Shown here: positions 476 to 46,323 of the stretch, one piece after another | Numbering within the stretch: the first letter of the stretch is position 1 | How the letters are laid out: every line of letters starts with the position of its first letter | Virus record (IMG/VR): IMGVR_UViG_2684623050_000001 | Coordinates: 53,698-117,697 of that record | Direction: 5' to 3' (one strand) | DNA length: 64,000 nucleotides | Source of the DNA: a virus | Lineage: Duplodnaviria > Caudoviricetes | Notes under the pieces: model-generated | The model's database searches: none | What the model saw: the letters and a program-made list of their open reading frames with translations, nothing else | Told to the model about the DNA's origin: nothing | Program-made: the position numbers and the translations under genes

Positions 476-568
476 CGTTCCGGGTCCGTTCCCTACCCGT
501 TAACCGGGCCTTAACGTAAGCATGGGCGAATCCGCTTGTCAGCGACTTCGCGAAACGGAAATCCGCCC

Positions 569-1249
569 ATGCTCACCATAGCTTGCCTCTCCCAGAAGGG
601 TGGCGTCGGTAAAAGCACCCTCACCCGACTGATCGCCCGCAGCTACGCGGCTGCCGGCTGGCGCGTGAAGATCGCCGACCTCAACACCAAGCAGAAGACG
701 TCCGTGGACTGGGCCTCGCTCCGGATGGAAGCGAACCTGGAGCCGTCCGTCTCGGCCGAGCCCTTCGCCAACGTGCGCCAGGCGCTCCTGCAGTCGATGA
801 ACTACGACCTCATGGTGTTCGACGGCCGCCCCGATTCCGAGACCGCGGGCCGTGACGTCGCCAAGGAGGCAGACCTCATCATCGTGCCGACCTCGGTCGC
901 GCTCGACGACCTCGCCCCGCAGGTGAAGTTCGCCCACGAGCTGATCTCCAACGGCATCGAGCGCAAGCGCATCCTCTTCGTCATCAACCAGACGGGCGAG
1001 AGCCAGGTCGAGGTCAACGACGCGCGCGAGTATGTCCGGGTCGCCGGCTACGGCGTCTGCGAGACCCACATCTCGGCCAAGCCCAGCTACCGGACCGCGC
1101 AGAACACCGGCCGCGCCCTGAACGAGACCACCTTCCCCTCGCTCAATGAGCGCGCCGACGCCCTGATGCAGGAGGTCGTGGATAAGGTCGCCGAGCTCGA
1201 TCCCCGCGCCTCCCAGCGTGCCTCCCTGATCGCCAAGGTGCCCGCATGA
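569..1249 (+). CDS. parA: ParA partition ATPase (short, type Ib-like)
   Basis: Deviant Walker A SQKGGVGKST, IADL, FDGRP; ATG at 569. Confidence 0.92.
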   Translation: MLTIACLSQKGGVGKSTLTRLIARSYAAAGWRVKIADLNTKQKTSVDWASLRMEANLEPSVSAEPFANVRQALLQSMNYDLMVFDGRPDSETAGRDVAKEADLIIVPTSVALDDLAPQVKFAHELISNGIERKRILFVINQTGESQVEVNDAREYVRVAGYGVCETHISAKPSYRTAQNTGRALNETTFPSLNERADALMQEVVDKVAELDPRASQRASLIAKVPA

Positions 1250-1674
1250 GCCGTCTGAAGATCGCCCCGCCTCCCATGCCGGCCGAGCCGGCGCCCGAAG
1301 TCGTTCCAGAGCCCGTAGAGGCGCCCTCCCCTGCTCCGGCTCCCAAGGTCGACGCGCGTCCCTCGCGGCTGTCTGCGGCCCCGCCCAAGCTCGCGCAGGC
1401 CCCGATCAACCTGCACCTGCCCAGCGAAGGCTTCGTCGACCTCAATTTCAAGGTCGAGCCCGAGCTGCGCCAGCGCTTCAAGCTCGAAGCCGTCCGCCGC
1501 GGCATGTCGAACAAGGAGCTGCTCGAAGCCTGCTTCACCGTCTACCTGGAGACGTTCCCCTCGGACGAGCCCATGCCGACCATCAAGCGTCCGACAGCAG
1601 AGACGCTCGCCCGGCGTCGGGAGAAGCGGCTGGAGCGCGAGAAGCGTCTCGAACGCATCCGGTCGCGCCAATGA
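1246..1674 (+). CDS. Ribbon-helix-helix partition adaptor (ParG-like) with Pro-rich flexible N-terminus
   Basis: LNFKVEPELRQRFKLEAVRRGMSNKELL RHH pattern; ATGA overlap with parA. Confidence 0.7.
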   Translation: MSRLKIAPPPMPAEPAPEVVPEPVEAPSPAPAPKVDARPSRLSAAPPKLAQAPINLHLPSEGFVDLNFKVEPELRQRFKLEAVRRGMSNKELLEACFTVYLETFPSDEPMPTIKRPTAETLARRREKRLEREKRLERIRSRQ

Positions 1675-1883: not shown

Positions 1884-2017
1884 TCGCCGGGGATCTGGTG
1901 CCTCTCCCAAGGACCGGCCGGAGATGCTGGTGGACACCCGAGGCATAGCCCAGAGCGCGTGAGTGTGGCTCTAGGACATCACTGTGTCTCAAAAACTACA
2001 GTGACAAACGTGCAACG

Positions 2018-2054
2018 TGATGCGCGCGTGCATCAGTGTGTCACGCGCGCATCA
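2018..2054 (-). terminator. Hairpin after the GG/CC-free operon
   Basis: 13-bp inverted repeat TGATGCGCGCGTG / CACGCGCGCATCA, 11-nt loop. Confidence 0.55.
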
Positions 2055-2059
2055 GTGTG

Positions 2060-2440
2060 TCATGCTTGCTCGTCAAGCACTAATTCGACGCAATGCATAA
2101 GAAAACGCTTGAAGTCTGCGAAGTTGTCGAAGCGAAAACATTGCTTCTGCAATGTAATGTTTTCGTCAAAGTTAAGATCAGAGCATGCATAATGCGCATC
2201 GTTAAGCGTGCGCACAACGACGTGATGAAAGCTGTCGTGCTTGCGTTCGATGCGCACAGCGTCGATGTAGTGAAACTGCATCACAAGCATTTCAACGCGC
2301 TCGCTGTAAGCGTCAAAATCGTCGCGCGCGCTCATGTCAGTGCGATAGTCTGCGAAGCTGTCGAACGCGCTCATCAGCGCTTGCTCTTGCGCGAGCTTGC
2401 GTGTCTCAGCGTTCATCTCAGCGATATCTTGAAGCGTCAT
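2060..2440 (-). CDS. Hypothetical protein, 126 aa, no Gly/Pro/Trp
   Basis: ATG at 2440 preceded by ACACAGAGAG leader, promoter and operator. Confidence 0.75.
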   Translation of the reverse strand: MTLQDIAEMNAETRKLAQEQALMSAFDSFADYRTDMSARDDFDAYSERVEMLVMQFHYIDAVRIERKHDSFHHVVVRTLNDAHYACSDLNFDENITLQKQCFRFDNFADFKRFLMHCVELVLDEQA

Positions 2441-2500
2441 GACGAAAACTCTCTGTGTTGCTGACAAATGCTTGTCGCATGCGTTCGCATTGCAAGTCAA

Positions 2501-2692
2501 TCACTGCTGACTGACTTTTTCGAGCTTTTTGCGCGCGCGATGCTTCGCGACACGCAAGCGCGCATCTTCGTCTCTGTGCGACGCGACAAGCGCTAGATAA
2601 GCTTCGCGTGCGCGTTGCTTCTCTGTGCGAAGCTCGCTCAGACGCGCTTCGATTGACGCGATTTCAGCGCGCAGAGCGTCAGACTTGCACAT
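2501..2692 (-). CDS. Small coiled-coil protein, no Gly/Pro/Trp
   Basis: Heptad pattern LRAEIASIEARLSELR. Confidence 0.6.
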   Translation of the reverse strand: MCKSDALRAEIASIEARLSELRTEKQRAREAYLALVASHRDEDARLRVAKHRARKKLEKVSQQ

Positions 2693-2752
2693 AGCGTTTG
2701 CTTCTCATGAGAGCGTCGCACAGCGCGTTCGCGCGCTCTGAGCTAGTGAGAG

Positions 2753-2781
2753 CGCTAGAGACGCGCGAAGCGTCTCTAGCG
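2753..2781 (-). terminator. GG/CC-free hairpin
   Basis: 12-bp stem CGCTAGAGACGC / GCGTCTCTAGCG, loop TTCGC on the minus strand. Confidence 0.55.
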
Positions 2782-2794
2782 TGCGTCTGAGCGC

Positions 2795-3409
2795 TTAGAG
2801 CGCGACGTTCAGCGCTTTCGCGAGACGCTTCGTCGTCGTCGCGCTCAGATTGAGCTTGTAAGCGACTTTGTTCATGTCGTCGCGCGTCTCTGTCAGCACG
2901 TCGAACATTTGCAGCGCATTGATGCTAGAGCTTGACTGAGTGTCAGCAGTGCTTGCAGCGATGCTGCGAGCGTAGCGCGAAATCAGTTGCTCTTTCGTCG
3001 CGTCGCACTTGAGCGCGTCGCACAGCGACGCTTGAGCGTCAGCGTGCGTCATGCTCTTGTCAGCTTTCGTCAGATTGAGAGCAGTCAAGAAAACGTGCTT
3101 GCTGTAGACGTTCAGCGCTTCAGCTTTGACAGCAGCGCGCGCGACGTTGAACACTTTCTCAGCGCTGTAGACGTTGAAACGCTTGTTGCGACGCTCTTGA
3201 CGATTGATGAAGTCAGCAGCGACGTTCGCAGTGTGCATGACTTCGCAAACGACGTCTGACGCGAAGTCAGCGCGAAGCGACTTGAACGTCTTGAAAATGT
3301 TTTCGTTAGCGTTGTTCTCGCGCTCATAAGCTTCGCGAGCGTCGAAAGCAGAAGTGAGAGCGAGCTTGTAAGCAGTGACAGCTTCGTTCTTCGCGACGTT
3401 GTTGCTCAT
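2795..3409 (-). CDS. 204-aa Gly/Pro/Trp-free paralog of ORF 4666-5574 (putative winged-helix DNA-binding protein)
   Basis: FINRQERRNKRFNVYSAEKV vs FVNRTQHDGSRYNVYAIDKV; ASTADTQSSSSINAL vs ASTAPTQASSTMQAL. Confidence 0.8.
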   Translation of the reverse strand: MSNNVAKNEAVTAYKLALTSAFDAREAYERENNANENIFKTFKSLRADFASDVVCEVMHTANVAADFINRQERRNKRFNVYSAEKVFNVARAAVKAEALNVYSKHVFLTALNLTKADKSMTHADAQASLCDALKCDATKEQLISRYARSIAASTADTQSSSSINALQMFDVLTETRDDMNKVAYKLNLSATTTKRLAKALNVAL

Positions 3410-3444
3410 GTCTGTGTCTCTCTGTGTTTGTGTGCTGACAAGAG

Positions 3445-3488
3445 ACAATTTAGTCAGTTCGCATTGAGAGTCAATCAGCACTGAGTGA
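3445..3488 (-). promoter_or_regulatory. Sigma70-like promoter whose -35 overlaps an operator
   Basis: Minus strand TTGACT-N16-TAAATT; operator TCAATCA-GCAC-TGAGTGA at 3471-3488; similar arrangement at 2470-2514. Confidence 0.6.
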
Positions 3489-3684
3489 CTTTTTGCAGAA
3501 AATAGGAATTTTCTTCTGAGACGCATTCTTGCTCTTGACAGTAGCAAGCGAGCAACACGAGCGTGTGCGCAATCTACATGCGCACAATTCAATGATGCAC
3601 GATGTATTGCGCACGATTTAAGAGCGCTTGATCGAGTGATGCGCGAGCGATCGAGCCCGCGCCGCGCCATGGGTCTCTACCGAA

Positions 3685-3720
3685 GCCCGCCCCAAGCCGT
3701 TCCTAATTTCCGGAACCGGA
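3685..3720. repeat. 36-bp dispersed repeat, copy 1 of 3 (others 4557-4592, 5955-5990)
   Basis: GCCCGCCCCwrGCCGTTCCTAAwTyCcrGAwCmGGA. Confidence 0.85.
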
Positions 3721-3969
3721 TGGGTCAACGGCGTCCGCCCATGGCAGCCCGATCCCTCCCATGGCACTCCATGGGGCACCAATGCGAAAATATCGTCTCA
3801 GGAGGCCCGTGGAAGCCCGCGGCAGGCTCCGGAGCTGTCCACGGTGCTCCGGACCCTCCCATGGGGCTCCTGCGCGCCCCTGTGCGATCCCATGGGCTGA
3901 TCGAGCGCAACGATATGGGGCGCCCCTCGCGAGACGCCCCTCTGTGTGTCGCGCGTGCTGCGCTACCCC

Positions 3970-4290
3970 TTACGCGAACGCTTCCTCGCGCAGCTCCAGT
4001 GCTTCGGCGCGCTCGCGGGCCTTGCGGTCGATCATGCGCTTGCGCTCGGTGCGGCGTCGCGCGATCTCACGCTCCGCATCCTCGACGTAGAAGCTGTCGA
4101 GCTCTCCCTCGACGAACTCACGGTAGGGCACGCCCAGGGCCCGAGCGACACGCATTTCCATTTTCTCCTCTTGGTCGATGATCTTGCTGAGATGCTGCTT
4201 CTGGACGTTCGGAGCAGCGGCGAGGGCGGCATTCGTGAACTCGATCGCGTCGGCGAGGGCGTTGACGACAGAAGAAACGAGATGGCGCAT
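3970..4290 (-). CDS. Hypothetical early protein
   Basis: ATG at 4290; shares a 27-bp upstream sequence with ORF 4666-5574. Confidence 0.7.
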   Translation of the reverse strand: MRHLVSSVVNALADAIEFTNAALAAAPNVQKQHLSKIIDQEEKMEMRVARALGVPYREFVEGELDSFYVEDAEREIARRRTERKRMIDRKARERAEALELREEAFA

Positions 4291-4307
4291 TGGTTGATCT
4301 CTTGTCT

Positions 4308-4334
4308 TGTGAAGCGCTGCGCTTCGTTGCTGAC
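4308..4334. repeat. 27-bp leader direct repeat, identical to 5591-5617
   Basis: TGTGAAGCGCTGCGCTTCGTTGCTGAC upstream of two consecutive genes; contains the GAAGCGC-T-GCGCTTC palindrome. Confidence 0.85.
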
Positions 4335-4665
4335 AAGAATGACTATGCACTACGAAATGTATGGATAGAACTGGTGCGTTGTGGTGCAGTATGGGGCGAC
4401 ATGGATATTAGGATACGTCTCCGGCACGGGACGCGGCCCCACCCCACGGCCTCCCATGGGACCCCGCGGCAGGCCGTGGATCACCGGACCGTGCCCATGG
4501 GAAGCCGAGGAAAGCCGGACCGTGGAGGACCGTGGCCTGCCATGGACCATACCAGGGCCCGCCCCTAGCCGTTCCTAATTCCCAGAACCGGAAGCGCGGG
4601 CTCCCATGGGGCGGACCGAGGCAAGAGAAAGGGGCGCACAGGGCGCCCCAGTCTCGTCTCGGGTC

Positions 4666-5574
4666 TTAGGCGGCCTTCTGGATCTTCTCCTTGAGCGCCG
4701 CGGTGATCGGGGCGTCGGTCAGGGTGAAGGTGGGGTTGCGGCTCGATCCCTCGCGCTTGACAACCCCGAGGGTCTCCAGGGCCTGCATGGTCGAGGACGC
4801 TTGGGTCGGCGCGGTGCTCGCGGAGACCGTGTGGCGCGTCAGGTGCTTCCGGACCGCGATCTCGACCCCATACTTGTCCGAGGCGCACGCCTTGGCGAGT
4901 TCGAGGCTGAAGGCGTGCCCCGCGGCTTGCAGCGCGAAGATCGACTTGAGGCAGGCGCGGTTGATGGCGTTCTTGACCTCACCCGCGTCGCTGCCGAGGG
5001 CGCGCAGGATGTCGACCACTTTGTCGATGGCGTAGACGTTGTAGCGCGACCCGTCGTGCTGCGTGCGGTTCACGAAGGCGGTGTCGACAGCGGCTGCGAT
5101 CAGCACGCGGGCCGGAGCCTTGGAGACGCCCATGCCCTCCCGCGCCTTCTTCAGGGTGCGCTGGATGTTGTGGCCGTCGCCTTTCTTCTGGAGCTCGAAC
5201 TGGGCGCGCTCGTCGATCGCGGCGTTGATGGTGCGCTGGGCCATCTCGATGTCCGTGTCGTCGAGCAGGTCCATCAGCTCCCGGAAGCTCGGGCCGGTCG
5301 GGGTAGCGGGCGCTTGGAGCTCGTCGCGCATCTCCTCGGCAGCGATCTCCTGAGCCACGAGATCGAGGACCGCATCGGACGCCTCGGCCTCTTGGACCGG
5401 CAGGTCTGCGAAGGTCTCTTCGAGGCTCAGTTGGATCGCGGCGAGGCGCTCGCTCTCGGCAGCGGCGTCGCGGGTGGCGATCATGGCGTCGTGCTGGAGT
5501 TCTCCGAAGTTGACGTTGATCTTCGGGGCGTCGTTCTTGAAGGACTTGCGGGTGCGAGCGGTCTTAGCGGTCAT
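4666..5574 (-). CDS. Hypothetical protein, acidic N-terminus, C-terminal putative winged helix
   Basis: 302-aa ORF with strong codon bias; paralogous to 2795-3409. Confidence 0.85.
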   Translation of the reverse strand: MTAKTARTRKSFKNDAPKINVNFGELQHDAMIATRDAAAESERLAAIQLSLEETFADLPVQEAEASDAVLDLVAQEIAAEEMRDELQAPATPTGPSFRELMDLLDDTDIEMAQRTINAAIDERAQFELQKKGDGHNIQRTLKKAREGMGVSKAPARVLIAAAVDTAFVNRTQHDGSRYNVYAIDKVVDILRALGSDAGEVKNAINRACLKSIFALQAAGHAFSLELAKACASDKYGVEIAVRKHLTRHTVSASTAPTQASSTMQALETLGVVKREGSSRNPTFTLTDAPITAALKEKIQKAA

Positions 5575-5824
5575 CTGTCTGTCTTTCGTCTGTGAAGCGC
5601 TGCGCTTCGTTGCTGACGAAGACTAGAAACGATATTTAGGCTAGGGATGCTACTGGCACGTTATGGAAGCTCTAAGCTTCTGGATACACGCTCGCGTGCT
5701 CTATATACGTGAGAGCCGATCTCCGGGCGCGCCATGGGAGGCCGAGGAGCCCCTTGGGTCGCCGGTGCCTGCCATGAAATCCCATGGGAGCCCGTGGGTC
5801 GCCGGACGCTTGGAAATCCAAGAG

Positions 5825-5904
5825 CTCCAAGTCCGCGTTCCTGTAAATAGGTATATACAGGTAGATAGTAGGTAATAGGTTTTTACAGGAACGCGGACTT
5901 GGAG
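5825..5904. repeat. Perfect 23-bp inverted repeat around a 34-bp AT-rich spacer
   Basis: CTCCAAGTCCGCGTTCCTGTAAA (5825-47) / TTTACAGGAACGCGGACTTGGAG (5882-5904). Confidence 0.9.
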
Positions 5905-6614
5905 ATTTCCATGGGATCTCCGGCGACCCGAGGCGTTCCGTGGATCGTTCCAGGGCCCGCCCCTGGCCGTTCCTAAATTCCGGATCAGGAAGACAGACCG
6001 CTGCCGGTGCCCCTCAAGCGGTCCGGACGAGACCTCGGGGCACCGGTCAGCAGCGTCAGCAACAAGCAGGCACAGAGAGAGCCCAGAGGCAGCTGCGCGT
6101 CCGGCGCGCTGCGCTTGCAGTGATAGAGATACAGCAGCGATCGTGGCGAGGCTACCGGATGCGTGTGGGCGTCCAAGGTGTTCGGGGATCGGTGGACGTA
6201 GAGGGAAACGGGCGCCGCGCGGCCGTGTCTATCTGATCCCTCTCCCAGCTATTCCCCACTCCCCGGCTCTCTATGGGCTCACACACGCTGGCGTCTCTCT
6301 AGGGGCTGTCTCTCCCCTCCCCTACGCGCTCCCCACAGACGCTCTCTCGCTCGTGTCTCTCTGATGCTGATGCGCTCTATTCGTTGGATGCGTCGCTCGC
6401 TTCGCTCAGAGCATCACACAGCGCGTTTCGTTCGTTCTGTGTCTCTCTGACGCTCTCACATGCTTCCCGACGCTCTATGAGCTTCTCATGCGATTTGCCC
6501 CTAAGACGCTCTCGATCGGGTCCATGTCTCTCTAGAGCTGATTGATGGTTTTGGGCTGCGAAATCGGGCTGCTCGGGCTCATGTCCCCTGATGAGACATT
6601 TTCCGCAAAATCGC

Positions 6615-6762
6615 GTTCGCATTGGATTTTGATGGGACATCCATAGGACATCCAGGTGACATCCATGGGACATCGGTGAGACATTCGCGGCCCTCGCCCG
6701 ATAGTTCGCATTGAGGTTCGAGGGGACATGCAGGTGACGTCCATGGGACATCCATGAGACAG
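6615..6762. repeat. 11-bp-period tandem repeats (iteron/centromere-like)
   Basis: GACAT at 6636, 6647, 6658, 6669, 6680 and GACRT/GACAG at 6725, 6736, 6747, 6758; each block starts 21 bp after the start of a GTTCGCATTG. Confidence 0.85.
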
Positions 6763-6864
6763 GCCTGGCCTCTCCGGACCGTGGCCTGTGTGAGCCTGGA
6801 CCAGGCTTCCATGGACCGGGTGCTCTACGAAGAAGGGGCGCCCGTGGTGCGCCCCTGTGTGGTC

Positions 6865-9362: not shown

Positions 9363-9685
9363 CGGGATGCCTCGGCGATGAACTCGCAGATCGCCCGTGC
9401 GGGATTCGGCAGCTCGGGCTGCATCAGAGCCTCGCGGGCCTGCTCCATCGCCGCATCGAACTCGGCGATTACATCCTCGGGGATGATGTCGTCGAACGCC
9501 TCGGCAACATCGAGCAGCGTCTGGAGCGTGCGCAGGTCGATGGTCACGGTGCCCGGCATGAGGCGCACGTAGTCGCTGCCGTCGAGACGCTGGATCGTCT
9601 GAGCGATCTGACCGCCCGGAGCATCAGTCTGCTCGATGATGCGCTCGCCCGGCAGCATGCGGGTGATGGTGTCTTGGTTCTGCAT
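9359..9685 (-). CDS. Hypothetical protein
   Basis: Start MQNQDT downstream of the promoter motif at 9721-9740. Confidence 0.65.
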   Translation of the reverse strand: MQNQDTITRMLPGERIIEQTDAPGGQIAQTIQRLDGSDYVRLMPGTVTIDLRTLQTLLDVAEAFDDIIPEDVIAEFDAAMEQAREALMQPELPNPARAICEFIAEASR

Positions 9686-9756
9686 GTCTCTGCTCGCTGT
9701 GTGCTCTGCGATGATTTGACTATCGCAGAGCAAATTCGGCATGTCGGCTGGAACGA

Positions 9757-10347
9757 CTAGGCGGCGTTCGTGCGGTAGTCTTTGACGACTTCCACGACGA
9801 CGCTGGATTCTGGGGCGCTCGCGGCGATCGTGACGGTCGTCAGGCCCCAGGCGGTGCTGTCCATCGACATCCAGCTGTTCTGCTCGGCAGTCTTGTTGGG
9901 GCTGAACTCGCTGTGGACATGCACGGCGTTGTTCGGCTCGGCGAGGAATGCAGCGGCGATACGCTCGGCTTCCTCGGAGATCTGGGCGCGCAGGGTCGGC
10001 TCGGCGCAGGCGGCGTCTCGCATCTGCTCCTCGCAGTCGAAGACGATCTTCATGGACGCACGGAACTGCTCTACGGCTTCGGCAGCGGTCTCGAACACGA
10101 GGACTGCGGTGATGTCCGGGCCGCAATCGGTGTAGGCGAACAGGGTCTTGCCCTGGCTCGCGGCGATCAGCGCGTGCGAGTGCTTGTCGGTCTCGTATTC
10201 GTAGTGGGTGTCCGGCAGGTCGGCATCGTCTGGCGCTGTGTCGCAGGTCAGGACCGGGCCGTTGTTGCTCTCGATCAGCGTCACGACGACGTGATCGTAG
10301 TCGATGGTCGAGGCGTCGCTGTGGCTGGTGATGTGTTGGATGGTCAT
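9757..10347 (-). CDS. Hypothetical protein
   Basis: 196-aa ORF, GG-free leader. Confidence 0.7.
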   Translation of the reverse strand: MTIQHITSHSDASTIDYDHVVVTLIESNNGPVLTCDTAPDDADLPDTHYEYETDKHSHALIAASQGKTLFAYTDCGPDITAVLVFETAAEAVEQFRASMKIVFDCEEQMRDAACAEPTLRAQISEEAERIAAAFLAEPNNAVHVHSEFSPNKTAEQNSWMSMDSTAWGLTTVTIAASAPESSVVVEVVKDYRTNAA

Positions 10348-10418
10348 CGCGTGCTCTCGCTAAGTCGTTGCTGACATTGCGTTTATAGCAATGTCAGCGC
10401 TGTCTGTGCGCGGGGTCT

Positions 10419-14961: not shown

Positions 14962-15995
14962 CAGGCCGCGAGCTGATCCGCGCGGCCGACCACACCGTTC
15001 TCGGACGGCGGGTTGATGCGCACGTCGTAGCGGACGCCGGCCTCGACCAGCGTGCCGGTCTCCGCAGGGGTCAGATCGAAGAACACGTTCTTCTCCACGA
15101 TCCGGGTGTGGAGCTTCACGAGCAGCGCATCGACCGCGGCCAGCCTGTCGGCGTAGCGATCGGCGTCGGCGCTGTCGTCGTTCGCGACGGTCTTGAGAGC
15201 GGCGAGCTCCTGCTCGACCATCGCCTTCTCCTCGCGCAGCTCGCCGATGACCTCGGCCTGCTGCTTGACCGTCTCGTCGAGCTCCTCGATCGTCGCCGTC
15301 TGGCTCTCGATCGCCAGGTTGCGGGACTGAAGCACGTCCATCAGGTGCCCGTGCTTCATCTGGCGATCTTCGATCTCGCCTTCGAGCAGAGCGGCGTGCT
15401 CCTGGAGCCCCTCGACTTCGCCGGTGAGCTTCTCGATCACGCGGGCGATGATGCCCTTCTCGTTCTCCTCGCCGCCGTAGGTGCCGACGAAGCCCGACGC
15501 GATGATCGCCTCGAAGATGGTCTCGATGACCTCGGCCGGGTCGTAGCCGTTCTCCGGCAGCTGCGGGTAGATCTTGCGGAGCGCGAGGTCGATCTCGGCG
15601 AAGGTCTCCTCGTCGAGCGCGAGCTCCGTGTTCTTCTCGCGGATCACCTGGCCGAGGTGGTTGATGGTCTCGGCCCCCTTGGCGAGCGTGCCGGCCGCGG
15701 CGTTCATGAGGAGCGCGCTGGTCTGCTCCTGCTCCAGCTTCTTCAGGAGCTCGTTGCGGTAGTGGTCGATGACGTCGTTCAGCTCGCGGATCGTGACGTC
15801 GCGGTCGGCGATCATCTGGAACTGGTCGGACTTGAGCAGGCTGCCCAGGTGCGAGGCGACGTTGACGGTGCGCTCGTTGGTCTCGGTCTCGGCAGCGCGG
15901 GCGCGACGGAAGGCGCGGATCGAGAAGCCACTCAGAAGGCCGGACAGGCCGAGCGAGGCAGCGGCGACGAGATTGGTGGTGCTGAGGATGTCCAT
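14961..15995 (-). CDS. Membrane-anchored coiled-coil protein
   Basis: Start MDILSTT; N-terminal hydrophobic helix, long heptad region. Confidence 0.75.
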   Translation of the reverse strand: MDILSTTNLVAAASLGLSGLLSGFSIRAFRRARAAETETNERTVNVASHLGSLLKSDQFQMIADRDVTIRELNDVIDHYRNELLKKLEQEQTSALLMNAAAGTLAKGAETINHLGQVIREKNTELALDEETFAEIDLALRKIYPQLPENGYDPAEVIETIFEAIIASGFVGTYGGEENEKGIIARVIEKLTGEVEGLQEHAALLEGEIEDRQMKHGHLMDVLQSRNLAIESQTATIEELDETVKQQAEVIGELREEKAMVEQELAALKTVANDDSADADRYADRLAAVDALLVKLHTRIVEKNVFFDLTPAETGTLVEAGVRYDVRINPPSENGVVGRADQLAA

Positions 15996-16059
15996 GTCGA
16001 TCTTTCTCTGTGTGCGCTCACTCAGCGCTGACTGACTATAGCGCTCGCGTGTCGGCGTT

Positions 16060-28162: not shown

Positions 28163-29686
28163 TTAGGCAGCCTTCAGGTGCTTCGAGAGGGCCTTGCGGC
28201 ACATCTTGAGCTCCTTCTCGATCTCCCGCAGCGACTTGCCGGCCTTGTGGAGCTCGGTCGCCTTGAGGAGCTTCTCGGCGTAGGTGAGCACCGTGCTGAC
28301 CTCGGCCGGGGCAGGGGCCTTCTGGGCGAACGCCGGCTTGGCGACCTTCTTCGGCTTCGACTTGCGCTTGGGCGCGTTGACGATCTCCTTCACCAGGCTG
28401 TTGGTGATGGCGAAGTCGCCGAACTTCTTGGTGCGCAGCACCAGGCGCCCGGTCTTGCCGTCGTCACGGGTGGCCGCGACCTCGTAGTCGCCGTCGTCCA
28501 GCTTCTTCGAGCCCCTGATCCGCACCCAGTTGCCGGGGATCGCACGATCCCAGGCCGTCTGCGCCTTGGGCTTCTCGGGCACCACCGGCGCCGGGGCAGG
28601 GGAGGGCGCAGCCTCGGTGCCCTTCAGCTCCTCGCCGAGCTTGGCCTTGACCGCCTTGGCGTCGATCTTGGGCCGCTCCTCGATCTTGCGAACCGGGTTG
28701 AGCGCGGCCGGCAGACCAGGAGCGGCGCCGGTCTGAGTGACGGTGAGCGCGGTCTCCTTGTCCTTCACGAAGGAGCCGCCCACGACGACCTCTTCGAGCA
28801 CACCGACGTGATTGCCGGCGACGACGTTGGCGACGATGCCCCGCGCCTCCTTGGCAGTCAGCGCTGACTTATACTCCGAGACAGCCTTGTGAGCGGAGCC
28901 GTCGAGCAGCGCGACCAGGTGGTAGGCCGAGCAGCGCATCTTGCCGCCGTTGTAGTTCTCCGGGATCGCGATGACGTCGGCGGGATCGACCTTCACCAAG
29001 AAGACGGAATCGCCATACTGGCCGTAGCTCGCCGAGCAGACGTGCAGGCCGGAGCCGCACTGCGCACGGTCGACGCGGATCTTGTCGAGCGGCATCGAGA
29101 CGCGCGAGCCGAGACGCTGCATAACCCGGCCGGTGTGATGGTCGGCGAAGGTGTCGGGGCCCTTCTTGTCGAGGAACTTGTAGAGGACGATGCAGCCGTC
29201 GTCGGCGATCGGCAGATCCATCTTCTTCACGAAGGCGAGGAGCTCGTCCGCGGTGTGCTTGTGGTCGAGACGAGCGAAGCGCTCCAGGAACCGGGTGAGG
29301 CTGGTGCCGCCGTTCATCGCGGTGTCCTCGATCGCCTTCTCCAGCGCCGAAGCGTCCTCGATCTTGACGCCGGCAGCGGTCGAGATCGCGAGCTTGGAGA
29401 CGCCGTTCTCGACCTTCTCCTCGACCGTGACCGCGCCGCCCGTGACCTCGGCGATGCGCTTGGCGAGGCTGAACTGGTCGAGGTCGATCTCGATGCAGGC
29501 GCTCAGATCACTGCCGGACGCAGCAGCTTCGGCCGTCGCCTTGGCGAGCGGCACGAGCACCGCGTCCAGAATCGCCGCAGTGCGCCAGCTCTCCTGGCCG
29601 AACACCTGGCTCTTGCCGTCGGACGTGAAGAGAGTCACGCCGTTCTTGGAGACGATCGCTCCGGAAACGCAGATCTTGTTGCTCAC
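28163..29686 (-). CDS. rIIB: rIIB-like protein
   Basis: PIADDGCIVLYK, DHHTG, CGSGLHVCS, VKVDPADVIAIP; follows rIIA. Confidence 0.8.
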   Translation of the reverse strand: MSNKICVSGAIVSKNGVTLFTSDGKSQVFGQESWRTAAILDAVLVPLAKATAEAAASGSDLSACIEIDLDQFSLAKRIAEVTGGAVTVEEKVENGVSKLAISTAAGVKIEDASALEKAIEDTAMNGGTSLTRFLERFARLDHKHTADELLAFVKKMDLPIADDGCIVLYKFLDKKGPDTFADHHTGRVMQRLGSRVSMPLDKIRVDRAQCGSGLHVCSASYGQYGDSVFLVKVDPADVIAIPENYNGGKMRCSAYHLVALLDGSAHKAVSEYKSALTAKEARGIVANVVAGNHVGVLEEVVVGGSFVKDKETALTVTQTGAAPGLPAALNPVRKIEERPKIDAKAVKAKLGEELKGTEAAPSPAPAPVVPEKPKAQTAWDRAIPGNWVRIRGSKKLDDGDYEVAATRDDGKTGRLVLRTKKFGDFAITNSLVKEIVNAPKRKSKPKKVAKPAFAQKAPAPAEVSTVLTYAEKLLKATELHKAGKSLREIEKELKMCRKALSKHLKAA

Positions 29687-32060
29687 TTGCTGTTCTCCTT
29701 GCGGGAAATGTAACGCTGACCCAACTGTTCAGCGAAATCGAGGAAGTCTTCGCGCTGCGTCTGGGTCATCATGAGGAACTTCGACTTGTCGAAGACTTCC
29801 AGCAATCCCAGGTGCTCGACGCGGGTCTGAAGAGGCTCCCGTCCTTGAAGCCGGTGGCCTCAAGCTCGCAGACGATGTTGCGGTATTCCTCAACGAGCTT
29901 GAGGATCTCGGTGGACTCGGACTTGTCGAGATGGTCCGAGGAAGCCCAGCGCTGATGCAGGACGGTCTTCGCCATCAGCCACCAGGTCCAGGCGTCGTCG
30001 CGATCCGCGTCGTCGGTGTAGGGCTCACGCACAGCGGCGTGAGCGAAGCGACGCGAATGGGCGATCATCATGCCGGCGAGCTCCGAACCCATCTTGCTCG
30101 GGTTCGAGGCGAGCAGCGCCAGCTTCACGTAGAGGGCCTCGTAGGGCTTGTTCAGCGCGAGCCGGGCGCGGAGCTTCTCCAGGACCAGCGTTTCCAGACG
30201 CGGGATGTTCTGGCCCTGCAAAAAGTCCATGTCGGACCGCTTCCAAATCATTGCTACCTCGCCGATGTGCTTCTTGATGAGATCCAATACCAAATGCGCG
30301 TTGGGCGGCTGTCGGGTCAGGTAAAACGCGGGCTTGTAGTCGACAGATGTTGCCTTCACGCCGAAGTAGGCGGCCGGCATGAAGATGCGGGGAGAGACGT
30401 GGCACTCGCGGGTCGCGTAGAGCGTGATATCGTCCTTCGAGTAGGTCTCGCGGTCGCGATACTGGTCCCACGAAAGCTTGATGAAGCGAGGCGGGCAGGG
30501 CGGTCCGAACTGCTCCTTCGGCTTCTCGGCCTCGGGAATCACCTTCACAGCCGGCTTGAGGTCGATGACCTCGATGCCGAGCTTCTTCCCCTGCTCCAGA
30601 ATGACCTTGCGCTGGCTCTCCTTGAGCTTGCCGATCAGGATGTAGCCGCGCTCGGCCTTCCTCGCCTCGATCTTGTTCTGGGCGAGGAAGATGCGGGGCT
30701 TCCGCCAGCGGCCGTGAAAGCTGTAGGTGCGGTCCCGGTCGGGCTTGTTGGCCGCAATGGGCTTCTCGCGCTGCGTCACCTTGATGTGCAGGAGCTTCAG
30801 CACGTCGGCCTTGGTCGCGAGCCGCGCCACCGAGCGCTTGGCGTATTCGGTGGCGTCCCGCTCGAACGAGAAGCCCCGGCCGTGCTTGTGGCTCGCGATC
30901 TGCCGCAGGCCCCTCCGGCGATGCTTCATCGTGCCGAGGAAGATCTTCGCCTGCTCGCGCTCGGAGAAGCCGCGATTCGACATCACGTAGAGGGCGTAGC
31001 CGCGCGCGATCGCCTCGATGCCGGTGAGGAGCTTCTCGTTCTCGTTCTGCGCCTCGATATAGACCTTCTCGGCCGGCAGCTTGTTGCGCTTGGCGTCCTT
31101 GTAGGCCTCCTTCAGGAAGCCCTTCAGGTAGTGGTTCACCCGACCCTGGCAGCGGCCGACGACGCCTGCCAGCACCTTCTTGAGCGTGCCGACCGTCTGA
31201 TCGTTGTAGGACAACGCCTCGCGCGAGGGTGTGACCGAGATCGAGGACGGCGGGGCGTAGATGATGAAGGAGCGGTTGTTGAAGGTCATATCGCGCAGCC
31301 GCGAGATGTAGGCTTGAAGCTCCTCGTGCGTGTCCAGCGGGTAGAGAACGTTGGCGTAGAGGACCTGGACCTTCGCGATGTTGCGGCGCGACAGGTAGCC
31401 GAGGCCGAAGCCGTTGCGCTTGAGCTCCGTGTAGTCGGGCGCGCTGAGACGCTCGCCGTTGAGGTCGACGACCATGCCGCCTTCCTGAACGACCTGCTTG
31501 AGCGCGCTCTCGATCTTGTCGCGCATGCCGACGGCCAGCGGCACCGAGACCGTCAGGCCGGTCCCATCGGTGCGCGACTTCATCATGACCTTGGCGCCGG
31601 GCGTGCCGTTCGTGGTCGGGTCGCCGACGTGCATCGCGTAGAGGGTCGAGATGCCCTGGTGACGCGAGATCACGGTGAAGTGGTCGGAGATCGCGAACGG
31701 GGCCTTGGAGCCGAGGCCGAAGCCGCCCGTCTGGTTGTCCTGGCCCTCCTTCGTCGAGGCGAAGAGGGTGCAGTAGATGTCGGCGATGCGGTCGTCGGCG
31801 ATGCCGGGGCCCTGGTCCTCGACGATCAGCTCGTCGTCCGAGAGCGTCACCTTGACCGGCTCGCTCTCCTTGCCGACCATCGCGTGCGCGTCGATGGCGT
31901 TGCAGACGATCTCTCGGACCGCGGCACGCTCCTTGTCGCGGTAGAGGCTGTCGGACATGATCTTGAAGGCCGCAGCAGACGCCTTCACCTGGAAGGCGTG
32001 CGTCTTGCCGCCTCCGATGATGACGTGGCTGTCCGGCTCAGTGACGTGGGTCACTTGCAT
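29683..32060 (-). CDS. rIIA: rIIA-like protein (GHKL ATPase N-terminus) with apparent frameshift near 29840
   Basis: SLYRDKERAAVREIVCNAIDAH, DQGPGI, GGFGLGSKAPF; in-frame stop at 29769, alternative frame ends at 29683 overlapping the rIIB start. Confidence 0.8.
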
Positions 32061-32098
32061 GGGCGCGTCTCTCGCTCTCTGTGTGTGCGCTGCGCGTC

Positions 32099-32162
32099 TC
32101 AGTCAGCGCTGACTGACTTGTTATAGCGACAAAATCGCGGCGTTTCAGTCAGCGCTGAGTGA
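32099..32162 (-). promoter_or_regulatory. Type example: GCCG-N10-GCTATA promoter bracketed by two TCAGTCA-N4-TGACTGA operators
   Basis: Operators at 32099 and 32145; TATAGC at 32122, CGGC at 32138; family of 29 operators and ~16 promoters listed under findings. Confidence 0.85.
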
Positions 32163-35851: not shown

Positions 35852-36023
35852 GTTGATGTCCTCTATGTGCGGGAAGGGGAGGAGCGTTGGGCCGAGGGCG
35901 CACCTGCAAACCCTCGCTCCTCCCCGGTGCCTGTTCCCAGGCAGCGCTGCGTGTCTCAGTCAGCGCTGACTGATTTGTTATAGCGAGCGAGACGCGGCGT
36001 TTCGCTCGAAAAAGTGCGGAAGC

Positions 36024-44045: not shown

Positions 44046-45122
44046 TTACTCGGTGGCTGCGCGGGCGTCTGTGATGATCTGCGCGGCACGGGCGGCGATG
44101 GCTGCCTCGTGGGGCGAGCCCATGCGCTTGATGAACCCGTTGACCGAGGTTTCGAGCGTGACACCCTTGGCCGCCGTCGTGCCGGTGCGGGCGCTCGCGA
44201 CCTTGCGCTCCACCTGGAAGGTGATGCCGGCCGCGCCCATCCCTTCGAGCCCGCGCCGGAAGGCGTTGGTCTCAGCGTCGTCGAAGGCGAAGCCCCGGAC
44301 CCGGACGTGGTTGTCCGCGACGATCAGCGGGATCTCCTCGCTCGGCGTGTCAGGCGTGACCTCGACGAAGGACGGGGCGCGCGAGGCGCGGTAGTTCACC
44401 CGCTTGTCATCGACGAGCAGGAACCCGGCCTTGGTGCCGATGTCCGAGAAGGTCTGGTGCGTCGTGGCGCCGATCGACCACACCTTGCCCGCCTCGAACG
44501 CGCAGTGGTGATGGTAGTGGCCGGCGAACACGCGCCGGAAGCCGAGCCCTGCCAAATAGGAAGGGGTGAGCCCGTGACCCGGCACGCCCGAGAGCACACC
44601 GTCGATGCCGGCATGGATCACGAGATCGGTCTCGGAGCAGTCGAAGCCCTTGCCGGGGACCTTGATCGTGCTCGCCAGCGCTTCGAGCGCCGCCTTGAGG
44701 TCGTCGAGCTTCGGAATCCACGGCACCATCGCCAGGCCGAGCGAAGCCAAGTGCATCGGCTCGGTGATGACGGTGAAGCCCTTGAGGCTCGACAGCGACT
44801 GAATGGCGTTGCCGAGCACCGTCGTCTCGTTGGACTTCAGGTCGTGGTTGCCGGGGATCGCCACGATGTTGAAGCCGTCCCAGGTGAGACCCTTGATCGT
44901 CTCCGAGACCGGGTTGAAGACCTCGGGGTCGATCGAGCCGCGCGAGTGGAACAGGTCGCCGGCGAAGACGATGGTGTCGCCGCCCGCCGCGCGCAGCTCC
45001 TGGGCGCCGCGCTTGAGCTCCGTCAGCATGTGGTCGAGGCGGGAGTTCAGCCCGCTCGGCAGCTTGGTGGAGTAGGCGCTCCAGTTGTGCGCGTGCTGGT
45101 CCGAGAAGAGAGCGTAGACCAT
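44046..45122 (-). CDS. sbcD: SbcD/Mre11/gp47-like metallophosphoesterase nuclease
   Basis: SDQH, GDLFH, GNHD, GHYH. Confidence 0.9.
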   Translation of the reverse strand: MVYALFSDQHAHNWSAYSTKLPSGLNSRLDHMLTELKRGAQELRAAGGDTIVFAGDLFHSRGSIDPEVFNPVSETIKGLTWDGFNIVAIPGNHDLKSNETTVLGNAIQSLSSLKGFTVITEPMHLASLGLAMVPWIPKLDDLKAALEALASTIKVPGKGFDCSETDLVIHAGIDGVLSGVPGHGLTPSYLAGLGFRRVFAGHYHHHCAFEAGKVWSIGATTHQTFSDIGTKAGFLLVDDKRVNYRASRAPSFVEVTPDTPSEEIPLIVADNHVRVRGFAFDDAETNAFRRGLEGMGAAGITFQVERKVASARTGTTAAKGVTLETSVNGFIKRMGSPHEAAIAARAAQIITDARAATE

Positions 45123-46249: not shown

Positions 46250-46323
46250 TCTCGTCGTGCTCCGTGTGCTCAGTCATCGCTGACTGACTCGTTATAGCAG
46301 CGCACGATCGGCGTTTCAGTCGG

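What the first reader, a model, noticed from the sequence alone, without database searches (positions are those of the whole stretch)
1976..3504. A 1.5 kb operon with no GG or CC dinucleotide, encoding proteins without Gly, Pro or Trp
Seen: no GG/CC in 1,529 bp, and only one GG up to 3655. Roughly 200+ would be expected at ~55% GC (my estimate), and the flanks have one every few bases. AA/TT runs remain. The three ORFs (126, 63, 204 aa) lack G (GGN), P (CCN) and W (TGG). The leaders use AGAGAG-type sequence instead of GGAGG, and the hairpins are also GG/CC-free. Two sigma70-like promoters with operator-overlapped -35 boxes suggest immediate-early genes. Inference: selection on the DNA overrides protein sequence. 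Either virion DNA carries a bulky GG/CC modification that host RNA polymerase cannot read until these products are made, or this is first-injected DNA evading a GG/CC-targeting defence (compare the restriction-site-depleted T5 first-step-transfer DNA). I know of no described system like this.
Basis: partly seen in the sequence, partly recalled or inferred. Interest (0 to 1): 0.95.

Follow-up and report, generated by a model that had tools for sequence, protein, structure and literature searches.

The report
GG/CC-free start-up operon of a phage-plasmid
A 118-kb plasmid-like phage and its many relatives keep one small regulator operon written entirely without the DNA steps GG and CC, so its proteins lack glycine, proline and tryptophan; in related phages this stretch appears to be the very end of the packaged DNA, which points to an unknown factor that reads that two-letter step when the DNA first enters a cell.

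Summary
Window 1975-3504 has no GG or CC (215 expected), with one GG up to 3655. Nothing longer than 115 bp occurs elsewhere in the 5.6-Mb genome.

It is not an artefact. The core gene (2795-3409, 204 aa, winged-helix fold) belongs to a large, old family that is nearly free of Gly, Pro and Trp. Its DNA is GG/CC-free in most independent loci examined, including cultured Rhizobium phages. One Methylobacterium clade is relaxing.

The gene is a recoded short paralogue of the normally written neighbour 4666-5574. Phased CC-N2-GG repeat arrays flank that neighbour and abut the island.

New here: in Rhizobium phages B1VFA and V1VFA-S, the published terminal-repeat sizes (3,605 and 3,939 bp) match to within 1 bp the distance from an array start to the island's edge. 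The island is therefore probably the outermost part of the virion DNA, as in T5 first-step-transfer DNA.

I found no DNA-modification gene, and the host has no CRISPR array by a crude scan.

This scan has met the same trait before on other DNA (27 notes, at least 21 genomes). Four paper searches found no description in print.

The parts
1975..3504 (.). GG/CC-free island (1,530 bp): promoter, three genes, leaders and terminator-like hairpins
   Evidence: 0 GG/CC against 215 expected
3505..3655 (.). upstream regulatory stretch with a single GG (3505-3506). It holds TGCGCA-type inverted repeats and is replaced by other sequence in one relative.
   Evidence: in run X3, 163 bp here are replaced by 266 other letters
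2795..3409 (-). p204: core gene of the island, 204 aa, pI 9.1, no Gly/Pro/Trp. It has an N-terminal helical part and a C-terminal winged helix, so it is a probable DNA-binding regulator.
   Evidence: model pLDDT 91.3; winged-helix matches at Z 7-8.1; family of 43 close and 393 representative proteins
2501..2692 (-). p63: small basic coiled-coil-like protein (pI 10.1); lineage-variable second gene
   Evidence: absent in a close relative (X3); analogous 64-138 aa genes lie in other islands
2060..2440 (-). p126: acidic accessory protein (pI 4.8) of no known family
   Evidence: 31% identical to the C-terminal part of a 231-aa island gene in L003
3447..3474 (-). sigma70-like promoter TTGACT-16-TAAATT of p204
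3469..3490 (-). operator-like 22-bp imperfect palindrome over the -35. It is related to the palindrome CAGTCAGCGCTGACTG at about 16 other promoters of the replicon.
2495..2516 (-). second copy of the operator-like element with TTGACT, in front of p126
   Evidence: no -10 passes the scan
1975..2059 (-). 3' tail with two GG/CC-free hairpins; the island ends right after them
   Evidence: read by eye; the terminator scan does not list them
3667..3890 (.). first array of CC-N2-GG palindromes (9 CCRYGG, several 10 bp apart), starting 12 bp from the GG/CC-poor stretch
4444..4698 (.). second CCRYGG array (10 copies; spacings 10, 10, 10, 21, 25, 10, 10...)
4666..5574 (-). p302: normally written long paralogue of p204 (13 Gly, 9 Pro), with the same recognition-helix motif
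   Evidence: BLASTP 27% identity, E 5e-13; alignments A1 and A3; tree
5732..5938 (.). third CCRYGG array (5 copies)
6663..6842 (.). fourth CCRYGG array (5 copies)
536..1674 (+). type Ib partition genes (ParA, then a ribbon-helix-helix protein) that bound the module on the other side in most loci

Best explanation
The island is a self-contained start-up cassette. It sits at, or next to, the physical end of the packaged phage DNA, so it is the first DNA available to the host's sigma70 RNA polymerase after injection. Its double-stranded DNA, from the promoter to the terminator, is kept free of the step GG/CC. Some factor acts at that step, site by site, at a time when only this cassette has to work. 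The rest of the genome, with one GG/CC every 6 bp, is either not yet inside the cell or not yet needed. The one function always encoded is p204, a short recoded copy of the DNA-binding protein p302. It most likely binds the phased CC-N2-GG arrays that lie beside it and sets off the next step (further DNA entry, early regulation or replication). After that, the normally written p302 can take over.

Shown: the purge itself, its age and conservation, selection on single sites, the paralogy, the winged-helix fold and the conserved arrays.

Inferred: the terminal position (from DTR sizes of two relatives), expression first, and binding of p204 to the arrays.

Unknown: the factor that reads GG/CC.
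For: 1. The constraint is on DNA. There are 0 GG/CC in 1,530 bp, including codon junctions, leaders, hairpins and the promoter. The GG/CC-free zone starts 68-453 nt before the ATG in 11 of 11 loci measured. Both GG and CC are lost on the sense strand (pooled observed/expected 0.01 and 0.04), and no other word is avoided to that degree.

2. Single sites are selected against. 37 listed substitutions in a relative create none, against 9.4 expected from random substitutions at the same places and 0 of 2,000 simulations with none. Zero-site islands of 750-1,373 bp occur in L004, L009, L010, L016, L041 and B1VFA.

3. The trait is old and tied to one gene. All 43 close homologues have at most 6 G+P+W, and 25 of the 43 have none. 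Of the 150 best of 393 representatives, 51 have at most 1.5% G+P+W (median 205 aa) and 81 have more than 5% (median 295 aa). These fall into two clades, one of 47 free/13 intermediate/1 normal and one of 81 normal/5 free/2 intermediate.

4. Terminal position. PMC12509600 (section read) reports fixed termini with DTRs of 3,605 bp (B1VFA) and 3,939 bp (V1VFA-S). The stretch from the first CCGCGG of an array to the GG/CC bounding the island on its promoter side measures 3,604-3,605 and 3,939-3,940 bp. 332 of the 335-bp difference is an extra gene inside the V1VFA-S island.

5. Module architecture. The order p302 - arrays - island - par is conserved.

6. Promoter. The cassette has a host-type promoter.
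Against: The termini were not mapped with reads, for the relatives or for this replicon. The DTR fit rests on landmarks I chose after seeing one of the two numbers.

In this replicon the island is inverted relative to arrays and p302 compared with B1VFA. The end geometry cannot therefore be simply transferred, and here the dense arrays lie on the promoter side.

No reader of a bare dinucleotide is known. The island keeps many other GC-rich palindromes (GC and CG steps are 1.8-fold enriched), so general restriction avoidance fails.

The host shows no CRISPR array in a crude scan.

The relaxed M. oryzae clade keeps arrays, p302, structural genes and the ParB/ABC genes, so nothing I found explains why it relaxed.

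Leaky islands (29 GG/CC in about 2.3 kb of L003) show that a few sites can be tolerated.

No expression data exist. The RNA contig does not show transcription.
Confidence: 0.4

Rival explanations
1. The phage marks its own DNA. A phage enzyme puts a covalent mark (or nicks) at GG/CC on DNA before packaging. The mark hinders the host RNA polymerase, so only a mark-free cassette, and promoters with mark-free cores, can start on injected DNA. p204 then opens the rest, for instance by starting replication at the arrays.
For: Per-site, two-strand selection covers promoter to terminator. About 16 other promoters of the replicon are GG/CC-free from the spacer to the Shine-Dalgarno sequence; GG/CC-free gaps of 55 bp or more number 17 per 100 kb on the replicon against 2.15 on the chromosome. 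The trait travels with one phage group across Methylobacterium, Rhizobium and Faunimonas hosts. The replicon encodes a DNA ligase and B1VFA two, which would suit nicked DNA. This rival is compatible with a terminal position.
Against: I saw no DNA methyltransferase, TGT/DpdA, Mom-type or glycosyltransferase family. The evidence is 10 proteins, 10 (only ParB_N twice and ABC_tran) and 56, where only the best 25 of 48 families were shown. The ParB/ABC genes are kept in the relaxed M. oryzae plasmid. Other early-type genes (p302, 3970-4350) have normal GG/CC. The promoter cores are copies of one conserved promoter-operator module, so their lack of GG/CC may be inherited rather than selected.
Confidence: 0.2
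2. The reader is the cassette's own protein family. p302 and p204 bind the palindrome CC-N2-GG in phased arrays and, at high level, its half-site GG/CC anywhere. This occludes promoters and slows transcription. The gene that must stay on while this happens is written without half-sites.
For: The banned dinucleotide is the invariant part of the array unit: CCATGG/CCRYGG here, and CCTAGG also enriched in B1VFA. 16 of the window's 21 CCATGG lie in 3656-6850. Arrays abut the island in all longer loci. The two paralogues share the recognition-helix motif (T-Q-S/A-S-S, A-L invariant). This would explain why the same gene is always the protected one and why no enzyme is found. In SSU5, the positional analogue lacks AGG and GGG over about 0.6 kb and lies beside GGGAAAC repeats.
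Against: A winged-helix half-site of 2 bp is too weak to explain selection on every single site. The host chromosome would be coated too. The relaxed clade keeps arrays and p302. Binding of either protein to the arrays is untested. The RHH partition protein or another protein may own the arrays. SSU5_120 shows no detectable homology to p204.
Confidence: 0.12
3. The cassette evades a host defence that reads GG/CC on DNA, without any special entry order. Examples are a CRISPR system with a CC or NGG PAM, or a frequent-cutting or nicking nuclease.
For: GG/CC is the PAM of several CRISPR types (recalled, not tested here). The accessory genes are small, acidic, fast-evolving and without family, as anti-defence genes often are.
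Against: The rest of the genome has one GG/CC every 6 bp and would be hit anyway. A crude scan found no CRISPR array in the host. The trait follows the phage group across different hosts. The invariable gene is a DNA-binding protein, not the acidic accessories.
Confidence: 0.06
4. The constraint is on RNA or translation. The mRNA escapes a nuclease or binder of GG and CC, or the proteins must be made when the tRNAs for Gly, Pro and Trp (anticodons with CC or GG) are unavailable.
For: Every in-frame GG/CC codon is read by an anticodon containing CC or GG (genetic code). The leaders lack a GGAGG-type ribosome site. Rhizobium relatives carry a tRNA with anticodon CCA near the island.
Against: Codon junctions are purged as fully as codons: about 45-50 junction sites are expected per gene and 0 are seen in strict genes. 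The untranscribed promoter and upstream DNA are purged too. Loss of both GG and CC on one strand points to a symmetric reading of the double strand.
Confidence: 0.05

Closest known systems
First-step-transfer (pre-early) DNA of phage T5 in its long direct terminal repeat (T5 details recalled, not read here)
   Same: A large siphovirus with fixed ends and a kilobase-scale DTR in relatives (PMC12509600). A small self-contained early cassette with host-type promoters appears to lie at the DNA end. A repeat-rich stretch sits next to the cassette, like the T5 injection-stop region.
   Different: The avoided word is a bare dinucleotide on both strands, it is removed completely, and three amino acids are lost as a result. 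The cassette is 0.75-2.3 kb, not about 10 kb. I saw no homology to T5 pre-early proteins (no PHROG hit for the three proteins). Two-step entry is untested. The element is also a plasmid.
Leading end of T7-like genomes (Ocr made before the rest of the DNA enters; recalled)
   Same: In the B1VFA geometry a host-type promoter lies about 100 bp from the inferred DNA end and reads inward. An acidic accessory protein is present.
   Different: No T7-type RNA polymerase was seen among the families listed. In this replicon the cassette is inverted relative to B1VFA. p126 has no detectable likeness to Ocr or any family.
Motif avoidance in phages and plasmids (restriction sites, CRISPR PAMs)
   Same: A short DNA word is selectively lost from both strands.
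   Different: Known cases are genome-wide or statistical and involve words of 4-8 bp. They do not strip amino acids from proteins. Here other GC-rich palindromes are enriched, and the loss is confined to one expression unit.
SSU5-type phage-plasmids
   Same: 33 of 123 ORFs of the replicon have tblastn matches in SSU5. The order helicase - ParB - ParB - ABC ATPase - terminase is the same. A 217-aa gene plus a 68-aa basic gene sit at the corresponding place, with GG/CC at about 40% of the genome mean.
   Different: SSU5 has no strict GG/CC-free island; its longest gap is 154 bp. SSU5_120 is not detectably homologous to p204.
MarR/ArsR/PadR-type winged-helix regulators
   Same: Residues about 90-203 of the p204 model align with these folds at Z 7-8.1, rmsd 2-3 A, over 72-84 residues.
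   Different: There is no Pfam, PHROG or PDB sequence match. The N-terminal helical half is unmatched. By the tool's own note, Z values of this size are common for unrelated helical proteins.

Membership tests
T5-type first-step-transfer region | lies in the terminal repeat at the physical end of virion DNA | tested here: inconclusive
   In relatives B1VFA and V1VFA-S the published DTR sizes fit a repeat ending at the island edge within 1 bp. There are no reads and no data for this replicon, where the island is inverted.
T5-type first-step-transfer region | enters the cell first and pauses until its products are made | not testable with these tools
   needs infection experiments
T5-type first-step-transfer region | encodes homologues of T5 pre-early proteins (A1, A2, dmp) | tested here: inconclusive
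   p204 and p126 had no PHROG family; p63 had one at E 0.013. T5 proteins were not compared directly.
Restriction-site or PAM avoidance | the avoided word is the target of a system present in the host | tested here: inconclusive
   A crude repeat scan found no CRISPR array in the 5.6-Mb host genome. cas genes and restriction systems were not searched.
Phage DNA hypermodification systems (Mom, DpdA/7-deazaguanine, methyltransferases, glycosyltransferases) | a writer enzyme of a known family on the replicon | tested here: not met
   None appeared among 10 + 10 proteins or among the best 25 of 48 families matched by 56 further proteins. Not all ORFs were scanned, and 23 families were not shown.
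Phage-plasmid of the SSU5 kind | siphovirus structural and packaging genes together with plasmid replication and partition genes on one 100-120 kb replicon | tested here: met
   Found: RepC-type initiator (RP-C), ParA, DnaE, RecA and ligase. Terminase, portal, capsid, tape measure and tail genes were found by synteny with the annotated M. oryzae plasmid and B1VFA. The window wraps round the 117,697-bp contig.
Winged-helix transcription regulators (MarR/ArsR/PadR clan) | sequence membership in a curated family | tested here: not met
   No Pfam hit for p204 or for 37 long paralogues at E <= 0.01, apart from three single chance-level hits.
Winged-helix transcription regulators (MarR/ArsR/PadR clan) | winged-helix fold | tested here: met
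   The model (pLDDT 91.3) has helix-turn-helix plus a beta-hairpin wing at 152-186. The best structural rows are all winged-helix proteins, Z 7-8.1.

The most novel reading that the evidence does not exclude
A whole group of large phages and phage-plasmids uses the two-letter step GG/CC as a switchable signal on double-stranded DNA. A phage-borne reader acts at every GG/CC. That would be a sequence-encoded 'safe mode' for the first minutes of infection, maintained for so long that one protein family has evolved without three amino acids.
Probability: 0.3. Interest if true: 0.95.

Novelty: new variant of a known kind. Interest (0 to 1): 0.88.

Why it matters
If the reading holds, some factor in phage infection discriminates DNA by a bare dinucleotide. 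That factor is strong enough to remove glycine, proline and tryptophan from a protein family over deep time. Nothing in the four paper searches describes this.

The paralogue pair is a natural recoding experiment: the same fold written with and without GG/CC. It shows how far proteins can adapt to a 17-amino-acid alphabet.

The trait occurs in cultured, plaque-forming Rhizobium phages (B1VFA, V1VFA-S and the RHph phages). The question is therefore directly testable at the bench.

Tried and rejected
Strand asymmetry. In leaky and relaxed genes, sense-strand CC outnumbers GG (7 against 33; 18 against 53). This looked like a strand-specific reader. Site classes were compared with 21 control genes. 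In-codon GCC/ACC/TCC are back to normal (33 against 34.7). Junction GG (15 against 26), junction CC (17 against 23) and CGG/AGG (0 against 3.7) all lag. The asymmetry follows from the mutational path after relaxation. I do not claim a strand effect.

GHKL ATPase lead. A 763-aa GHKL ATPase and a 507-aa partner (window 28163-32060) are present in 8 of 8 strict, complete or large elements. They are absent from the relaxed M. oryzae plasmid and from SSU5 (four further records were fragments of 13-40% and uninformative). The partner resembles T4 rIIB (Atlas features 0.90, 202 of 256; structure TM 0.48). rIIA is recalled to carry a GHKL domain. The pair is therefore probably rIIA/rIIB-like and not a reader of GG/CC. 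One loss event is no correlation.

Genes special to the relaxed plasmid. These are two generic class-I methyltransferase-domain genes, TcmP plus DUF5131, and HEPN/Toprim. The first methyltransferase gave no match in 4 records searched. With one relaxed genome, no conclusion is possible.

Sequencing runs. No run holds half of the sampled words. Contigs of X1-X3 and X6 show relatives but cannot show transcription, ends or modification. The RNA-library contig (X6) is no evidence of expression.

p126. One near-identical protein only and no usable Atlas hit.

SSU5. No strict island. No homology of SSU5_120 to p204 (hhalign probability 0.4%).

Record starts of the RHph phages. These records are circular, so their start points say nothing about ends.

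Contig ends near islands in L010 and L011 were looked at and are inconsistent.

General restriction avoidance, UV or oxidation at GG, G-quadruplex avoidance, Rho or pause signals and Chi were considered and set aside. They do not require loss of every GG and CC on both strands while GC and CG steps rise.

Papers. PMC12509600: passages and the Announcement section were read; its figure, which shows the high-coverage regions, is not held. All other papers were seen as search listings only. Supplementary files were not opened.
Full report
OBSERVATION. The window (64.8% GC) has 10,307 GG/CC dinucleotides, about one every 6 bp, but none between 1974 and 3505 (1,531 bp). Only the GG at 3505 interrupts the run before 3656. 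The third longest gap is 91 bp, and no other dinucleotide class shows anything similar. The island's own base composition predicts 215 GG+CC. Instead, GC and CG steps are raised to 195 and 176 against 107 expected. The window lies on, and wraps round, a 117,697-bp contig (C2) of a 5.6-Mb, four-contig assembly. The longest gap anywhere else is 115 bp in the 5.4-Mb chromosome. Three minus-strand ORFs fill the island: p204 (2795-3409), p63 (2501-2692) and p126 (2060-2440). None has Gly, Pro or Trp, and none uses GCC, ACC, TCC, CGG or AGG. Leaders, inter-gene hairpins and the 3' tail are free of GG/CC as well.

NOT AN ARTEFACT, AND OLD. A word-indexed search gave 43 homologues of p204 at 42-100% identity. 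All have at most 6 G+P+W, and 25 of the 43 have none.

- DNA of 16 distinct related loci was fetched from a plasmid record, species genomes, viral contigs and metagenomes.
- In 12 of them the matched gene has 0-6 GG/CC where 11-111 would be expected at the locus density. One (L011) has 16.
- Three (the M. oryzae plasmid L001, plus L005 and L013, which are one clade) have 56-71 against 100-112 expected.
- A further complete 117.6-kb viral contig (L041) has a 1,373-bp gap.
- Four cultured Rhizobium phages (B1VFA, RHph_X66, RHph_N1_15, RHph_Y2_11) have gaps of 851, 432+336, 1,150 and 888 bp. Each covers a 188-199-aa gene with no G/P/W that matches the p204 profile at E 1e-11 to 1e-16. V1VFA-S has a 1,279-bp gap.

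A profile search of 1.84 billion representatives found 393 family members. Of the best 150, 51 have at most 1.5% G+P+W (median 205 aa), 18 are intermediate and 81 are normal (median 295 aa). A FastTree tree of 149 rows splits them into two clades. One holds 47 free, 13 intermediate and 1 normal row. The other holds 81 normal, 5 free and 2 intermediate rows, each with local support 95. This tree is FastTree only, and the odd composition may itself pull rows together. The picture is one old duplication, one copy recoded, and several later partial relaxations.

SELECTION ON SINGLE SITES OF THE DNA. Contigs of public runs hold close relatives. The 37 substitutions listed for one of them inside the island create no GG/CC. 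Random substitutions at the same places create 9.4 on average, and never none in 2,000 trials (378 further differences were not listed). A second relative lacks p63, and the 33 letters in its place are also GG/CC-free. Pooled over 11 islands, sense-strand GG and CC stand at 0.01 and 0.04 of expectation, and no other word is comparably avoided. The free zone begins 68-71 nt before the ATG in four loci, 97-124 nt in four and 225-453 nt in three. It ends 37-820 nt after the stop. It therefore covers the promoter as well as the transcript. This, together with the purge of codon junctions and of both GG and CC, argues for a reading of double-stranded DNA rather than of RNA, codons or tRNAs.

THE RELAXED CLADE. 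In the M. oryzae plasmid and two relatives the protein still has only 2-3 G+P, but the DNA is filling up again.

- GCC/ACC/TCC: 27-33 against 31.5-34.7 expected.
- Junction CC: 16-17 against 21-23.
- Junction GG: 10-15 against 22-26.
- CGG/AGG: 0 against 3.3-3.7.
- Pooled control genes sit at 0.86-1.0 of expectation.

This is amelioration after loss of the constraint. The apparent excess of CC over GG follows from which changes are driven by GC3 pressure, so I draw no strand conclusion. The relaxed plasmid keeps p302, the arrays, the structural genes and the ParB/ABC-ATPase genes. It lacks p63, p126 and an rIIA/rIIB-like pair, and it carries a few genes of its own. With one independent event, none of this can be called a cause.

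WHAT THE CASSETTE ENCODES. p204 folds with high confidence (pLDDT 91.3) into an N-terminal helical part and a C-terminal winged helix. Foldseek gives nothing below E 0.03. The structural aligner lists only winged-helix proteins for residues about 90-203, at Z 7-8.1, which is a middling score. There is no Pfam, PHROG or PDB sequence match for p204 or for 37 long paralogues.

p204 is 27% identical (E 5e-13) to the C-terminal two-thirds of p302 (4666-5574), which has normal composition. The most conserved block in both is the presumed recognition helix, with T, Q, S-S and A-L invariant in each alignment. Conserved Gly and Pro of p302 are replaced in p204.

Second and third genes vary by lineage.

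- Small basic coiled-coil-like proteins of 63-138 aa are found here and in L003, L018, RHph_N1_15 and RHph_Y2_11.
- Small acidic proteins are found here and in L003, L008, L017 and L018.
- L004, L009, L010, L016 and B1VFA have no second gene.

p204 is thus the one function that always needs the protected coding.

NEIGHBOURHOOD. In the longer loci p302 (9 of 16 fetched loci) and ParA (8 of 16) flank p204. The order is p302 - island - ParA/RHH partition genes, and B1VFA has the same set with the island inverted. Arrays of the palindrome CC-N2-GG flank p302 and end just before the island, often at 10-11-bp spacing.

- In the window, 16 of 21 CCATGG and 30 of 131 CCRYGG lie in 3656-6850.
- Clusters of 9, 10, 5 and 5 CCRYGG sit at 3667-3890, 4444-4698, 5732-5938 and 6663-6842.
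- In B1VFA, CCTAGG is also enriched.

The invariant part of the repeat unit is therefore exactly the banned dinucleotide.

The island's promoter is sigma70-like and is overlapped by a 22-bp imperfect palindrome. A related perfect palindrome (CAGTCAGCGCTGACTG) follows the -10 box of about 16 other promoters of the replicon. These share the form TGAAACGCCG - N10 - GCTATAAC and are GG/CC-free from the spacer to the Shine-Dalgarno sequence. Because they are copies of one module, I do not count them as independent evidence for the constraint.

THE REPLICON. C2 is a siphovirus-type phage-plasmid. It has a RepC-type initiator (RP-C), ParA, DnaE, DnaB-like helicase, RecA, dUTPase, ligase, a gp32-like protein, 5'-3' exonuclease, a B12-dependent reductase and PhoH. 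It also has terminase, portal, capsid, tape measure and tail genes, identified by synteny with the annotated M. oryzae plasmid and with B1VFA. 33 of 123 ORFs match SSU5.

No DNA methyltransferase, TGT/DpdA or similar family was seen in the scans made. The genes before the terminase give ParB_N twice and ABC_tran. No acetyltransferase family appeared at E <= 0.001 among the ten proteins given.

WHERE THE CASSETTE LIES ON VIRION DNA. The genome announcement of B1VFA and V1VFA-S (PMC12509600, Announcement section and table read) reports fixed termini and direct terminal repeats of 3,605 and 3,939 bp, without coordinates.

- In B1VFA, subtracting 3,605 bp from the GG/CC that bounds the island on its promoter side (43,259/60) lands on the first CCGCGG (39,656) of an array.
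- The homologous landmarks in V1VFA-S (21,002 and 24,940/41) are 3,939-3,940 bp apart.
- The 335-bp difference between the two stretches equals the 334-bp difference between the two repeats, and 332 bp of it is an extra gene inside the V1VFA-S island.

I chose the first landmark pair knowing one number, and the second phage is the test. If this fit is right, the island is the outermost 0.85-1.28 kb of the terminal repeat. Its promoter is then about 100 bp from the DNA end and reads inward, and the arrays follow it. This resembles the pre-early DNA in the T5 terminal repeat and the leading end of T7 (both recalled).

It would also explain why only this unit needs protection: it may be the only phage DNA in the cell, or the only DNA that must work, at that moment. 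It is not proven. Both read tools were already spent. In the present replicon the island is inverted relative to arrays and p302, so here the outer edge would be the terminator side (1975), or else the ends lie differently.

I could not identify it.

- A host reader is unlikely to be a CRISPR system of this strain, since a crude scan found no array.
- General restriction avoidance is contradicted by the enrichment of GC and CG steps.
- A phage-borne reader fits the fact that the trait follows one phage group across hosts, but no writer enzyme was found.
- p302 and p204 themselves are candidates because of the half-site identity. A 2-bp half-site explains selection on every single site poorly.

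I rank the explanations as follows:

- Terminal start-up cassette with an unknown dsDNA reader: 0.4.
- Self-marking of virion DNA: 0.2.
- Own-protein occupancy: 0.12.
- Host defence without ordered entry: 0.06.
- RNA or translation level: 0.05.

EARLIER NOTES OF THIS SCAN. A word look-up returned 27 notes in at least 21 genomes that describe GG/CC-free islands with Gly/Pro/Trp-free proteins in large phages and phage-plasmids. One concerns another 117-kb Methylobacterium element, and one places the cassette at the end of a Rhizobium phage-plasmid. I used them as leads only. The paralogy, the arrays, the retention of the ParB/ABC genes in a relaxed relative, and the terminal position were each re-examined here.

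NOVELTY. Four full-text searches found no description of a dinucleotide-free gene island or of Gly/Pro/Trp-free phage proteins. The nearest known kind is local target avoidance in first-entering phage DNA. This case differs in four ways: the word (2 bp, both strands), its completeness, its cost in amino acids, and its tie to a recoded paralogue. I file it as a new variant of a known kind. There is a 0.3 chance that the underlying reader is something categorically new.

Noticed in passing
window 28163-32060 (minus strand): A gene pair of 763 aa (N-terminal GHKL/HATPase_c_3 ATPase) and 507 aa. The 507-aa protein resembles T4 rIIB by language-model features and predicted structure, so this is probably an rIIA/rIIB-like pair behind one of the strongest operator-controlled promoters. 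It is present in all strict relatives tested. In the M. oryzae plasmid a HEPN/Toprim gene takes its place.
   Followed up: partly
about 16 sites on the replicon, e.g. window 32062-32139, 35940-35996, 15992-16054, 46262-46310: A shared promoter-operator module: TGAAACGCCG, 10 nt, GCTATAAC, then the palindrome CAGTCAGCGCTGACTG, often with a second copy upstream. The first GG after the promoter is usually the Shine-Dalgarno sequence. The replicon and its relatives also encode a sigma factor.
   Followed up: partly
window 5825-5904; C2 18356-18405 (L023) and C2 46195-46241 (L025, just upstream of the small-terminase-like gene): Three copies of an inverted repeat (TCCGC..CCTGTAA ... TTACAGG..GCGGA) around a 35-nt AT-rich core. 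These are the most AT-rich spots of the replicon. Function unknown (late promoter, terminator or processing site).
   Followed up: no
window 4292-4363, 5569-5639, 6386-6466, 9676-9738, 10342-10412: Early-type leaders outside the island (TTGTCAGCAAC ... AGAGAG-type ribosome site ... ATG) that also lack GG/CC for 60-80 nt, in front of normally written genes including p302.
   Followed up: partly
L020-L022 (M. oryzae plasmid NZ_CP090351.1), gene at record 44971-45579: A natural relaxation. The p204 orthologue keeps a nearly G/P/W-free protein, but its DNA has regained 71 GG/CC. This makes it a useful contrast strain for experiments.
   Followed up: yes
L026-L028 (Salmonella phage SSU5), record 95.2-96.9 kb: At the syntenic place, a 217-aa gene (SSU5_120) and a 68-aa basic gene (annotated CorA, surely wrongly) lie in a stretch with GG/CC at about 40% of the genome mean. 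The stretch has 0.6-kb gaps for AGG/CCT and GGG/CCC and sits beside GGGAAAC-type repeats. No detectable homology to p204.
   Followed up: partly
L029 44310-44547, L030 8717-8965, L042 9186-9422 (Rhizobium phages): A small tRNA cluster within 1-1.5 kb of the island. It includes a tRNA or pseudo-tRNA with anticodon CCA (Trp), one of the three amino acids the island proteins avoid.
   Followed up: no
window 3970-4350 (minus strand): A 126-aa protein between two arrays, with only weak PHROG hits to transcription regulators (E 0.016-0.08). It is a possible further regulator of the module.
   Followed up: no
run X3, window 2519-2710: A close relative lacks the 63-aa gene: 190 bp are replaced by 33 GG/CC-free letters. 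Its upstream regulatory 163 bp (3492-3656) are also replaced by 266 other letters. The cassette's accessory parts therefore turn over quickly.
   Followed up: partly
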